Source: the human T2T-CHM13v2.0 reference genome, Homo sapiens. Taken from it: a DNA stretch of 64,000 nucleotides. The stretch's first letter is position 1, and each line of letters opens with the position of its first letter. Shown here piece after piece: positions 6,419 through 40,761 of the stretch. The DNA lies in assembly GCF_009914755.1 (NCBI RefSeq), contig NC_060933.1. One strand, 5' to 3'. A program made the position numbers and the translations under genes. The notes under the pieces are model-generated. The model saw nothing but the letters and a program-made list of their open reading frames with translations. It ran no database searches and had not been told where the DNA came from.

Positions 6419-9066
<2,648 letters not shown>

Positions 9067-9294
9067 GCAACTATTCTTCTATGTCTGTTTATTCATCTGT
9101 AAAATTGAGGAGATTGGAATAAATGATCCCTCTATATCCCTTCTACCTTTGATGCTTTATGAATCCAGGTTAAAGTGTGTGGTACAATTTAAGAAGGCTC
9201 CTTTTAATATTTGTATATCCATTAAGGACTCTTAGCTCAGAACTTCAGTATTATTCAATGACTCTCTCTTTCTGTCTTCCTCCTTCTCTCTCTT

Positions 9295-36479: not shown

Positions 36480-36841
36480 GTTTTAATTGATCACAATATC
36501 TTCTTCCCACCTGACTCCATGTATTTGCAGAAAAAACTAGGTCATTCGCCTGTAGAATTTCCCACATTTTGTGTTTGGCTTAGTGCAGCCTTATGGTATA
36601 ATTTAACACATATAAACTGATAGTTAGAACAAGAGGTTGATTTAAGTTCTTTTAGTTTTATATTCTTTTGGCAAGAATACTTCAAAGGTGGTGCAGTGTG
36701 CTTCCTATTGAATCATATTCAGAGGCATGTAATGTTGGATTTTCTTTCTCTTATCAGACTTCTTAATTTTAGTTGTTCCAGTACATAAAAATTAGTATGT
36801 TATCATGGTCTGTGATTACTAATCATTTAAGAGTTTATGGG

Positions 36842-36945
36842 GATGTAAGTTACTTGCTCCTGCTTTGCTGTCTGCCACGAGTAAAAGCCCCCTGAAGACT
36901 CCCCAGAAGCAGATGCTGCCATGCTTCCTGTACAGCCTGTGGAAC
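36842..36945 (+). mobile_element. MST-type (MSTA/MSTB) MaLR LTR fragment forming the 5' exon of the RBPJ retrocopy
   Basis: TCTGCCACGAGTAAAAGCCCCCTGAAGACTCCCCAGAAGCAGATGCTGCCATGCTTCCTGTACAGCCTGTGGAAC. The last ~25 nt are identical to the MSTA LTR at ~8655-8679. The fragment lies inside the retrocopy TSD. Confidence 0.85.
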
Positions 36946-37198
36946 GTCATTGAAATTATAAGACTATCATTCAAATGGAAGCATTACAGTTCTTTGGAAA
37001 CATTATTATTTCAAAATGAAGGAGAATGATACAGATACACTGGCTGAGGTGTTTTGAGGTGCATTGAAATGTTCCAAGCTGTTACTTACCTTAACATGTT
37101 CTTGCGGTACCATGGCATGGATTAAAAGGAAATTTGGTAAGTGGCCTCCATTTAAACGACTTACTAGGGAAGCTATGTGAAATTATTTAAAAGGGTAA

Positions 37199-37321
<123 letters not shown>

Positions 37322-37324
37322 TAA

Positions 37325-37732
<408 letters not shown>

Positions 37733-37769
37733 TGATGATGGATCAGAAGGAGAAGAATTCACAGTCTGA

Positions 37770-38554
<785 letters not shown>

Positions 38555-38789
38555 TAACTACCGTCTTTTTGCTAAGACTTAAACGGACTTGAGTGCAGCA
38601 AAAAGTTGACAAAAAAGGAGAAAAAAATGAACAGTCTTTGTGGTTTATTGGGAAAACTTTTCACACCAGGTGATACTATTCTAAAACCCCACTATCTATC
38701 TGCAAGTGCTGATTTGAAATGCAGAAGCCACAGTAAAACAAAAAAACATCAAAATGTAAAAACTTGGAAATTAATTTTTTCAGCTGTTT

Positions 38790-38830
38790 TGTTGGTTGGT
38801 TGGTTGGTTGGTTGGTTGGTTGGTTGGTTT
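38790..38830. repeat. (GTTG)n microsatellite in the RBPJ-derived 3'UTR
   Basis: Seen directly. Confidence 0.95.
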
Positions 38831-40761
38831 TTGTTTGGTTTTGTTTAAGTGGGCAAGAAGTAAATAATGTGGCTGGAATACAAGTTGAACAAACTAGAAG
38901 ACATAAATCTAACATAGTTTTTATGGACCAAGTAACTTGTATATTGTATAAGCTTTAGTAAAAGGTACATTTTCACATATTCACCATACCCTTTTTTATA
39001 TCATGGTATTATAGTACATCTTGTCACCAAAGAGGTTGTTCTCTTCCCCACTCACCTTTGAGCTTTTGCTTTAAAATACATTCAGGTTCCAAGCCTGGCC
39101 ATGCTTGCTTAATCTAATTATCATGTTCTTCCAAGTTTTTTTTTGGTCCGAGGCTAGAGCTTTTTTTTTTTTTTCCAGCTGAAGTCTTACGACTTTTCGT
39201 GAGTCAAAATTGTTTGGATTTCAGCAAGTCAAATCTTGTGAAGGCCTACATTTTTTTTTAAGATTATGTGAAGTCTGTGCAAAAGCTTTAAAAAGCTGCC
39301 TCTGCCTTGCCTGCAACACATGCAATGTATGTTAACTTAGTCTCTCTTCGCAGACACTGTTGGTAGTTATTTCTGCATTTTCCTTTTTTTTAAAAAAAGT
39401 ATTTCTAGTGGTTATCCAAGAGGTTCTAACATTCACATGCAATTTGGTGTGGCCATTTTGCCATAAATGAGTTAATAGCGCAGAACATGTTGATATTTGA
39501 AGTGTTCTCTCTCCTTTTCCCATAACGTAAATACATTATGTGTGTTCCAGGATTTGTTCAGGTTTTTCCCCGCTCCTGATCTTGTACATAACTTGTATTA
39601 CGTGTAAGTTAAACATTTCATTTTGAACTTGGAATGTTCCCAGTGATTTCATCCAGCAGAGTATTTTCTGCCTTGTTGGCAAGTGACAAAAAATATCATG
39701 AGAAGCATCTGCTACCAGTTGGGAGATGGTGCCCTTATGGTAGAATGAGGAAGATCTCAGCAAAAGCATGTTTTATTAACTTTACTTTTTGGGGGTGTTG
39801 GAGGGGGTAGCCTAGGCCAGAACATCATTGTAATCTTAAAACATAAGATGCTTTTATTAGATGATCAACTAAAATAGCTGGAAGACAGTACTTTAGAAAC
39901 AGATAGTTGTAAGATTATGAAATGCAAATGTAACTTGTGTTTTTATTTTTCTTTTCCCTGTCTTTTTTGTTTGTTTTCTCTTCTCCAGTACTGAGCATCT
40001 CCACAAATGTCTCCTAACTCAGAAAATGTTTCTTTTCCTTTCAGCTGAGATTTGGTTGCATTCAGGGTTGTACATTGGCCTTGCATGCGAAACTCGGCAG
40101 TTGTACCTTGCTTTCATTCCTGAACTTCGCTTAGCTTTTGTTCGGATTCTTCGAAATTGCAGCAGACTCTTTGGGCTACATTTAGTACAAGAACCACGTG
40201 CATAATATGATACGGCACAGTCTAGTAATACAATCATCCTTCTTAGAGTAAAAACTACCTCTAGATTGTGGTAAGCTTTTACTGTCCCATAAAACAGGAG
40301 CCACGGTAATTTATGAATGCAAAACTGTAACTTCCTACAGTGTTTCCATACAGAACATTGTCTTTCTGGTTTCCTGGGCTATTTTGAAAAAATTTTCATT
40401 AATAGACTTTTCAGAAATTATTATTAGTAGCATTTTTTTCCAGCTTTGCTGTTTTCATCACTCATTCTTTGCTCAGACTCCAGCATTCAGTACCGTGTTG
40501 GTCCAGATGTAGGTTTATATGCTCATTTTTAGCTTATTTCTTGTACCTTGCAGCACACTCTACGCACTCAGCCCTTAAGGGGTTTACTTTACAAACTGTG
40601 TGCCTGTAAGATGTATTAGCAATAAGATAGAAAATTGAGCAAGTTTATACCATAATTTTGTAGAAAAAAAGAATCTGCTCAATTCCATATTTCATCCATG
40701 AAAAACTTGCAATACGAGCAGTTTCAAGGAATAAGAAGAAAAAAAAAAGAGTTTATAGGTC

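What the first reader, a model, noticed from the sequence alone, without database searches (positions are those of the whole stretch)
36829..37140. RBPJ retrocopy preserves an LTR-initiated, spliced chimeric RBPJ mRNA (MST-LTR exon joined to the MAWIKR exon)
Seen: the 5' TSD (AAGAGTTTATGGG, 36829-36841; partner at 40747-40759) places ~100 bp of MST-type MaLR LTR inside the retroposed unit. The LTR homology stops at ...CCTGTACAGCCTGTGGAAC (36945), within 1 nt of the point where the intact LTR in this window continues into its splice donor (GGAACT|GTGAGT, ~8675-8686). It then runs straight into the non-repeat 5'UTR leading to the MAWIKR start. The upstream promoter part and the post-donor tail of the LTR are both missing, as expected for a spliced first exon and not for a later insertion. 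Established: MaLR (MST/THE1/MLT) LTRs act as alternative promoters that splice from this donor, especially in oocytes and early embryos, and heritable retrocopies arise from germline or early-embryo RNA. Inference: the parent RBPJ locus has, or had, an MST LTR promoter driving a germline isoform of the core Notch transcription factor, and this pseudogene is its fossil. Whether this isoform is already annotated cannot be determined here.
Basis: partly seen in the sequence, partly recalled or inferred. Interest (0 to 1): 0.85.

Follow-up and report, generated by a model that had tools for sequence, protein, structure and literature searches.

The report
RBPJ pseudogene preserves an LTR-started transcript
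This dead, intron-less copy of the Notch-pathway gene RBPJ was made from a spliced messenger RNA whose first exon lay in an ancient retroviral repeat just upstream of the real gene, a neat but not unusual example of repeats acting as extra gene promoters.

Summary

- **The unit.** It spans 36842-40746. It is flanked by a 12-of-13 target-site duplication and ends in an A-run.
- **The two segments map separately to the RBPJ locus.** Both lie on chr4, same strand, 47.7 kb apart. 36843-36945 matches a sense solo MaLR LTR at chr4:26299394-26299784 and stops at its GT donor. 36947-37128 matches the MAWIKR exon, which is preceded by a pyrimidine tract and AG.
- **The rest of the gene follows.** All later exons follow in order.
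- **The chr4 LTR is the likely source.** Identity alone does not single it out. It does share 4 of the retrocopy's 10 non-majority bases, one of them unique among 54 copies. An 18-mer spanning that base occurs in no other close LTR genome-wide.
- **One insertion.** Four chr9 copies are segmental duplicates of a single event.

Still open:
- The junction base (36946 G) mismatches the parent's C.
- The start site inside the LTR is inferred, not shown.
- No present-day expression evidence appeared in any supplement I could search.

Verdict: a new member of a known kind, of moderate interest.

The parts
36829..36841 (+). 5' target-site duplication AAGAGTTTATGGG
   Evidence: D13, 12 of 13 with its partner. 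It is preceded by CATTT, so the inferred nick TCTT/AAAT on the bottom strand resembles an L1 endonuclease site (the site consensus is recalled).
36842..36842 (+). First base of the insert, a G that matches neither the parent LTR (C) nor any of 53 family copies
   Evidence: column 76: 0 carriers of G. It could be an untemplated or cap-derived G marking a true mRNA 5' end, or a plain substitution. This is inference.
36843..36945 (+). LTR-derived first exon (103 nt), a copy of positions ~210-312 of the solo MaLR LTR at chr4:26299394-26299784
   Evidence: 90% identity to chr4:26299603-26299705, + strand. (4 shared derived bases, one unique). (18-mer signature).
36946..36946 (+). Junction base G. 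The parent's last exon base is C (GGAACC|GTGAGC) and the next exon starts with T
   Evidence: all four chr9 copies carry G.
36947..37128 (+). MAWIKR exon (5'UTR plus ATG at 37112-37114), a copy of chr4:26347446-26347629
   Evidence: (92% identity).
37129..37164 (+). 36-nt mini-exon
   Evidence: the 35-nt core was found once outside the retrocopies, at chr4:26371351-26371385 on the + strand.
37165..38244 (+). Eight further internal RBPJ exons, joined without introns
   Evidence: matches in order at chr4:26391161, 26400454, 26405529, 26409321, 26409610, 26413692, 26414875 and 26415396.
38245..40734 (+). Last exon (end of the coding part and the 3'UTR). At 40479/40480 it lacks 1711 bp that the parent has
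   Evidence: the parent borders are not GT-AG, and TGCCA is present at both ends.
40735..40746 (+). Remnant of the poly(A) tail after the AATAA signal
40747..40759 (+). 3' target-site duplication AAGAGTTTATAGG
   Evidence: D13. One search shows it is identical in all four chr9 copies.
8399..9067 (+). Its donor GGAACT|GTGAGT lies at about 8675-8686
   Evidence: It is a different subfamily from the source LTR. The boundaries were read by eye.

Best explanation
RBPJP2 is an L1-type processed pseudogene of RBPJ. Its template was a spliced mRNA whose first exon lay inside a sense-oriented solo MaLR LTR at T2T chr4:26299394-26299784. That LTR sits 4.1 kb upstream of the large CpG island in the RBPJ locus.

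Transcription most likely began in the LTR near its position 210. It ran about 104 nt to the LTR's own splice donor (GGAACC|GTGAGC). The transcript then spliced across 47.7 kb, over the CpG island, to the acceptor of the MAWIKR exon, and continued through all downstream RBPJ exons.

Because the copy is inherited, that mRNA must have existed in germline or early-embryo cells. I place the event roughly 35-50 million years ago. The single insertion was later copied to four places on chr9 by segmental duplication.

- **Shown:** the retrocopy anatomy, the two-exon origin at splice-site borders, and the identity of the source LTR.
- **Inferred:** the start site within the LTR, the germline timing and the age.
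For: 1. **Retrocopy hallmarks.** There is a 12-of-13 target-site duplication, an A-run after the AATAA signal, and no introns.
2. **Separate origins for the two segments.** 36843-36945 and 36946-37129 map to chr4:26299603-26299705 and chr4:26347445-26347629. Both are on the + strand, in the right order, 47.7 kb apart.
3. **Splice-site borders.** In the parent the LTR segment is followed by GTGAGC. The second segment is preceded by ttgtttttgtttttaAG and followed by GTATGC.
4. **The LTR is intact and in sense.** It is a complete 391-bp solo LTR with a GTTTC duplication on both sides, in sense to RBPJ.
5. **Source identification.**
   - Of the retrocopy's 10 non-majority bases, the chr4 LTR shares 4. 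The best of 53 other copies share 3 (L015, L026, L037).
   - One shared base (T>G, column 108) is carried by no other copy.
   - The 18-mer over it has 7 exact genome-wide matches: the chr4 LTR, the 4 retrocopies, one non-LTR chance match, and one MaLR only 71% similar to the chr4 LTR.
   - Searching back with the chr4 LTR segment ranks the retrocopies second, 141 bits against 142.
6. **Divergence fits one event.** The LTR exon has diverged from the chr4 LTR (K2P 0.106) to about the same degree as the other untranslated parts: 0.076 for the MAWIKR exon and 0.078 for the long part of the last exon. It is higher than 7 of the 8 coding exons, as expected if both lineages are neutral there.
7. **MaLR donors are known.** MaLR LTRs are reported to carry splice donors at the 3' end of the LTR (Franke 2017, passage). 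A THE1B LTR that initiates and splices into CSF1R is a described case (Babaian & Mager 2016, figure legend).
Against: 1. **Junction mismatch.** The parent predicts GGAACC+TCATTG, but all four copies read GGAACG+TCATTG. This needs a C>G change or a reverse-transcription error.
2. **Start site not pinned.** The copy begins 42-49 nt after the LTR's TATA-like TTTAAAAG, not 25-30 nt. Retrocopies are also often 5'-truncated. An upstream start with the LTR merely exonised is therefore not excluded.
3. **Identity does not single out the chr4 LTR.** It scores 90% over 103 nt, against 89% for chr4:38360593 and 92% over 91 nt for chr1:200703746. Only 40 of 1030 and 40 of 2072 first-look candidates were scored.
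4. **No present-day expression evidence.** RBPJ is absent from:
   - the human oocyte LTR-initiated unit list of Brind'Amour 2018;
   - the 3 supplement files of a RAMPAGE atlas of repeat-derived start sites;
   - the 7 files of the DUX4/MaLR study;
   - the 5 files of a long-read human embryo transcriptome;
   - the 5 searched files of a pan-cancer LTR assembly, where one file was not searched.
5. **Poor translation expected.** The predicted 5'UTR carries 8 upstream ATGs, 3 of them in the LTR exon, so translation of such an mRNA would probably be inefficient.
Confidence: 0.8

Rival explanations
1. The template mRNA started upstream of the LTR, for example at a far-upstream RBPJ promoter. The LTR contributed only an exon, and the retrocopy is 5'-truncated inside it. 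On this reading the LTR supplied a donor, not a promoter.
For: - The 5' end lies 42-49 nt after the TATA-like element, not at the usual -30 distance.
- 5' truncation is common in L1-mediated copies (established knowledge).
- Older MST and MLT1 families are reported to have weak, dispersed initiation (PMC12963367, passage).
Against: - The LTR is complete and in sense, and the exon has the typical layout of an LTR first exon: about 100 nt ending at the LTR's own donor.
- There is no AG directly upstream of the copy's first aligned base.
- The insert's first base is a G carried by none of 53 family copies nor by the parent, which fits a cap-derived base at a true 5' end. This last point is weak.
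Confidence: 0.13
2. The chimera was made during reverse transcription. The L1 enzyme copied an RBPJ mRNA and then switched template to an unrelated MaLR LTR transcript.
For: Template switching that yields chimeric retrocopies is described (review PMC5470649, passages). Identity alone does not uniquely pick the chr4 LTR.
Against: - Both break points fall, within one base, on a GT donor and an AG acceptor.
- The two pieces lie in the same locus, on the same strand and in the right order.
- The LTR piece carries bases private to the RBPJ-locus LTR.
Confidence: 0.03
3. The LTR fragment is not part of the retroposed unit. It was either already at the chr9 target or arrived there later.
For: The duplication has one mismatch, and no empty site could be examined.
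Against: - The fragment lies inside the duplication, directly against it.
- It lacks both LTR ends.
- It ends at the donor position and matches the RBPJ-locus LTR specifically.
- All four duplicated copies have the same structure.
Confidence: 0.02

Closest known systems
LTR-initiated chimeric gene transcripts from MaLR LTRs (for example THE1B-CSF1R; MT/ORR1-driven oocyte transcripts in rodents)
   Same: A sense solo MaLR LTR a few kb upstream of a gene gives a short non-coding first exon. That exon ends at the LTR's own 3' splice donor and joins a genic acceptor.
   Different: The transcript is seen here only as a DNA fossil, with no RNA evidence. The LTR exon skips the CpG-island region and joins an alternative exon (MAWIKR) 47.7 kb away. 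The LTR subfamily was not determined.
Processed pseudogenes as records of past splice variants (Shemesh et al. 2006, PNAS; seen only in a reference list, content recalled)
   Same: An intron-less copy preserves an alternative exon combination of the parent gene.
   Different: What is preserved here is a repeat-derived alternative first exon. I found no description of that for RBPJ in the text searches.
L1 template-switch chimeric retrocopies (U6-type chimeras; template switching reviewed in PMC5470649)
   Same: A retrocopy whose 5' part comes from a different sequence than the gene body.
   Different: The join is at splice sites, and both parts come from one locus in order. This is therefore not a member.
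Mouse oocyte MT2B1-initiated unit overlapping Rbpj (Brind'Amour 2018, Supplementary Data 1, row chr5:53624500-53657400)
   Same: An LTR-initiated sense transcription unit through the RBPJ orthologue in the female germline.
   Different: It involves a different LTR family (ERVL MT2B1) and a different position in the gene, and is rodent-specific. It is independent of the primate LTR. I read only the table row, not the transcript structure.

Membership tests
L1-mediated processed pseudogene | All introns of the parent gene are absent | tested here: met
   13 parent segments from chr4:26299603 to 26419874 are contiguous in 36843-40734.
L1-mediated processed pseudogene | Poly(A) tract at the 3' end after the parent's polyadenylation signal | tested here: met
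   a run of 10-11 A follows GGAATAAGAAG. The parent reads GGAATAAATAAAAAGG at this point.
L1-mediated processed pseudogene | Target-site duplication abutting both ends | tested here: met
   (D13): 13 nt, 12 of 13 matching. The pair is the same in all four copies.
L1-mediated processed pseudogene | Empty site in a species or paralogue without the insert | not testable with these tools
   the unique 5' flank occurs only at the four filled chr9 sites. No other primate genome was available.
LTR-initiated chimeric transcript (MaLR alternative promoter) | Sense-oriented LTR upstream of the joined exon in the parent locus | tested here: met
   a solo LTR at chr4:26299394-26299784 on the + strand, with GTTTC duplications.
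LTR-initiated chimeric transcript (MaLR alternative promoter) | First exon ends at the LTR's splice donor and joins a canonical acceptor | tested here: met
   GGAACC|GTGAGC and ...tttttaAG|TCATTG. One junction base is mismatched.
LTR-initiated chimeric transcript (MaLR alternative promoter) | Transcription start site inside the LTR | tested here: inconclusive
   The copy starts at LTR position ~210, 42-49 nt after a TATA-like element, and has an odd 5' G. 5' truncation cannot be excluded.
LTR-initiated chimeric transcript (MaLR alternative promoter) | RNA evidence (CAGE, junction reads, cDNA) | not testable with these tools
   No RNA data were available. RBPJ is absent from the searched supplements of five studies.
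MST subfamily of MaLR | Best match to an MST consensus rather than THE1 or MLT1 | not testable with these tools
   No repeat library was available. High copy number is shown by 1030-2072 first-look candidates. The shared-to-private substitution ratio (4 against 5-6) would fit the MST origin of about 75 My cited.
Template-switch chimeric retrocopy | Join at arbitrary positions between RNAs from unrelated loci | tested here: not met
   the join is at donor and acceptor sites, and both parts come from the RBPJ locus.

The most novel reading that the evidence does not exclude
The LTR 4.1 kb upstream of the RBPJ CpG island may be a long-lived promoter that is still used in the germline or early embryo. 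It keeps the CpG-containing form of its donor (CGT), which only 3 of 53 relatives retain. LTR-driven maternal RBPJ transcription also arose independently in rodents from an MT2B1 LTR. Together these would point to recurrent selection for wiring the core Notch transcription factor to oocyte or embryo LTR promoters.
Probability: 0.15. Interest if true: 0.6.

Novelty: new member of a known kind. Interest (0 to 1): 0.35.

Why it matters
The finding gives datable, sequence-level evidence that RBPJ, the DNA-binding core of Notch signalling, was transcribed in the primate germline or early embryo from a retroviral LTR tens of millions of years ago.

It also names the exact LTR and the exact splice junction (T2T chr4:26299706 joined to 26347446) to look for in oocyte, embryo, testis and DUX4-induced RNA data.

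In addition, the RefSeq span of RBPJP2 (36938-39411) under-calls the real retroposed unit (36842-40746).

The principle is well known, for both LTR promoters and pseudogenes as transcript fossils. The value here is a clean worked example and a testable lead, not a new mechanism.

Tried and rejected
- **Empty-site paralogue.** A search with the 5' flank found only the four filled chr9 sites.
- **Identity ranking of LTR copies.** Ranking alone did not single out the source. I replaced it with a shared-derived-base count and an 18-mer signature search.
- **3'UTR gap.** The 1711 bp that the parent has and the copy lacks is not an intron: there is no GT-AG, and TGCCA sits at both borders.
- **Fast-diverged exon.** 37984-38142 has 20 differences in 159 nt but no G>A or C>T excess, so APOBEC-type editing is rejected.
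- **Literature.**
  - Text searches for RBPJ combined with MaLR, LTR, alternative first exon or chimeric transcript gave nothing relevant.
  - The pseudogene symbols appear only in two unrelated papers.
  - Two RBPJ mentions that I followed were irrelevant: a reference-list entry and Rbpjl.
  - Two papers named by PMC id were not available.
- **LTR start-site position.** I could not find it in the passages read.

Full report
**What is in the window**

The retroposed unit runs from 36842 to 40746. It is bounded by AAGAGTTTATGGG (36829-36841) and AAGAGTTTATAGG (40747-40759), which match at 12 of 13 positions (family D13). The 3' copy follows an A-run placed just after the parent's AATAA signal.

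From the ATG at 37112 the frame reads MAWIKRKFGKWPPFKRLTREAM*NYLKG*..., so the copy is dead. The hub's RefSeq span for RBPJP2 (36938-39411) covers only part of the unit.

**Mapping to the parent gene**

The window's own genome could be searched. A 288-base query (36842-37129) split into two hits on chr4, both on the + strand:
- bases 105-288 at chr4:26347445-26347629 (92% identity);
- bases 2-104 at chr4:26299603-26299705 (90% identity), 47.7 kb upstream.

The whole unit then matched the remaining RBPJ exons in order, up to chr4:26419874. The 36-nt mini-exon was found by pattern at chr4:26371351-26371385.

In the parent, the first segment sits inside a complete 391-bp solo LTR (L006:1292-1682, that is chr4:26299394-26299784). 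The LTR is flanked by GTTTC on both sides and reads ...GCGGAACC|GTGAGCC at the end of the match. The second segment is preceded by ...ttgtttttgtttttaAG. It ends ATTAAAAG|GTATGC and encodes MAWIKR.

So the two pieces are separate exons with canonical borders.

**Is this LTR really the source?**

Identity alone is not decisive. The chr4 RBPJ-locus copy scores 90% over 103 nt, against 89% for chr4:38360593 and 92% over 91 nt for chr1:200703746. In the reciprocal search the retrocopies rank second, 141 bits against 142. Only 40 of 1030 and 40 of 2072 first-look candidates were scored, so the sample is the best-matching copies, not the whole family.

I therefore aligned 53 such copies with the parent and the retrocopy and counted derived bases:
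- The retrocopy departs from the majority base at 10 of 104 columns.
- The chr4 LTR shares 4 of these 10 departures. The next best copies share 3 (L015, L026, L037).
- One shared change (T>G, column 108) is carried by no other copy.
- The window's own LTR and the retrocopy were left out of the majority count, as was the parent.

An 18-mer spanning that change has 7 exact matches in the genome:
- the chr4 LTR;
- the four retrocopies;
- one non-LTR chance match (chr1:38620529);
- one MaLR only 71% similar to the chr4 LTR (chr9:87556430).

Taken with position, strand and the splice-site borders, the RBPJ-locus LTR is the source.

**One event, later duplicated**

Four chr9 places hold the full unit at 97-100% identity: 78.40, 39.75, 40.93 and 44.05 Mb. 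They share:
- the same upstream flank and 5' duplication;
- the same 3' duplication, and an Alu that begins 2 nt after it;
- the same junction base.

They are therefore segmental duplicates of one insertion.

**Age**

Against the parent there are 263 differences in 3814 aligned sites. This gives K2P 0.073 overall and 0.058 outside CpG. The LTR exon is at 0.106, which fits neutrality on both lineages.

With a recalled primate neutral rate of about 1-1.5e-9 per site per year, this suggests roughly 35-50 My. That is an inference.

In the LTR exon, 4 changes are shared and 5-6 are private to each lineage. This puts the LTR's own insertion at about 1.7 times that age. It would be compatible with the ~75 My origin given for MST (van de Lagemaat 2006, Table 1), if the LTR is an MST, which I could not test.

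**Mechanism**

The shown steps are:
- an RBPJ mRNA with the LTR exon joined to the MAWIKR exon existed;
- it was reverse-transcribed and inserted at an L1-type target.

The inferred steps are:
- the LTR supplied the promoter;
- the cell was germline or early embryo, which heritability requires.

The copy starts at LTR position ~210, 42-49 nt after a TATA-like TTTAAAAG, so the exact start site is not pinned down. The first base of the insert is a G found in neither the parent nor any of the 53 copies. It may be cap-derived, which would mark a genuine 5' end, but this is weak evidence.

A 3.3-kb CpG island lies at chr4:26303901-26307201, 4.1 kb downstream of the LTR. From recall, this is probably the main RBPJ promoter. 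The LTR transcript must have read through it and skipped to the MAWIKR exon.

The predicted 5'UTR holds 8 upstream ATGs, 3 of them in the LTR exon, so protein output from this mRNA would probably be low.

**Points against, or unresolved**

- **Junction base.** 36946 is G, while the parent predicts C (GGAACC+TCATTG). All four copies agree. A substitution or copying error is the simplest reading, and outgroup sequences are needed to settle it.
- **Donor retention.** Among the 53 relatives the donor GT survives in 17, and the CGT form in only 3. The parent's intact donor is notable, but not strong evidence of selection.
- **No present-day expression evidence.** RBPJ is absent from:
  - the human oocyte LTR-initiated unit list (Brind'Amour 2018, Supplementary Data 3);
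  - the 3 supplement files of a RAMPAGE repeat-start-site atlas;
  - the 7 files of the DUX4/MaLR study;
  - the 4 files of PMC6908575;
  - the 5 files of a long-read embryo transcriptome;
  - the 5 searched files of a pan-cancer LTR assembly, where one file was not searched.

  These are gene-name searches of stored supplement text only, and bioRxiv supplements were closed.
- **Annotation status.** I could not determine whether GENCODE or RefSeq already annotates the exon.

**Rivals**

- **Upstream start with 5' truncation.** This keeps the splicing story but removes the promoter claim. I give it about 0.13.
- **Template switching.** It would need both break points to fall on splice sites of one locus by chance, and it is contradicted by the private LTR bases. 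About 0.03.
- **A pre-existing or later LTR fragment at chr9.** This is contradicted by its place inside the duplication, its missing ends and its specific match. About 0.02.

**Comparison and verdict**

The architecture matches described MaLR LTR-initiated chimeric transcripts. Splice donors at the 3' end of MaLR LTRs are reported by Franke 2017, and THE1B-CSF1R is described by Babaian & Mager 2016.

The idea that processed pseudogenes record past transcript forms is established (Shemesh 2006; seen only in a reference list, content recalled).

Text searches for RBPJ with LTR-related terms and for the pseudogene symbols found no description of this case.

It is a new, well-documented member of a known kind. 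Interest is moderate.

Noticed in passing
window 36842-40746 against the annotated 36938-39411: The RefSeq span of RBPJP2 misses the 96-nt LTR-derived 5' end and about 1.3 kb of 3'UTR. Its start lies 9 nt before the first base of the MAWIKR exon (36947), which may mean that the cDNA used to define it already reaches into the LTR exon.
   Followed up: no
window 40479/40480; parent chr4:26417909-26419619 (L062:60-1770): The retrocopy lacks 1711 bp of the parent's 3'UTR. The borders are not GT-AG and carry TGCCA on both sides. This looks like a microhomology deletion rather than an intron, and all four chr9 copies share it.
   Followed up: partly
window 37984-38142: One coding exon is 12.6% diverged from the parent (20 of 159 sites), against 3.4-7.9% for the other seven coding exons. 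There are several adjacent double changes and no APOBEC-like bias. Unexplained.
   Followed up: partly
G000 chr9:39751688-39755590, 40929989-40933872, 44048269-44052152: Three further full copies of the same retrocopy, with identical flanks and duplications, sit in the pericentromeric region of chr9. They form two pairs, at about 100% and about 97% identity to the window copy.
   Followed up: partly
window 40762 onward: An Alu begins 2 nt after the 3' target-site duplication in all four copies, so two retroposition events used almost the same spot.
   Followed up: no
Brind'Amour 2018 (PMC6102241), Supplementary Data 1, row chr5:53624500-53657400: Mouse oocytes have an MT2B1 (ERVL) LTR-initiated unit overlapping Rbpj in sense. 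This would be an independent, rodent-specific LTR start in the same gene.
   Followed up: partly
L006:1599-1610 (chr4:26299701-26299712) against 53 related LTR copies: The RBPJ-locus LTR keeps the CpG form of its splice donor (C|GT). Only 3 of 53 relatives keep CGT, 17 of 53 keep any GT, and 24 read CAT.
   Followed up: partly
chr4:26344301-26345001 (L077): A small CpG-rich block (700 bp, 36 CpG) lies 2.4 kb upstream of the MAWIKR exon. It may be a separate promoter for that exon.
   Followed up: no
window 8399-9067: A MaLR LTR is split by an Alu insertion at about 8722-9010. It belongs to a different subfamily from the RBPJ-locus LTR, with a 13-column gap in the alignment.
   Followed up: partly
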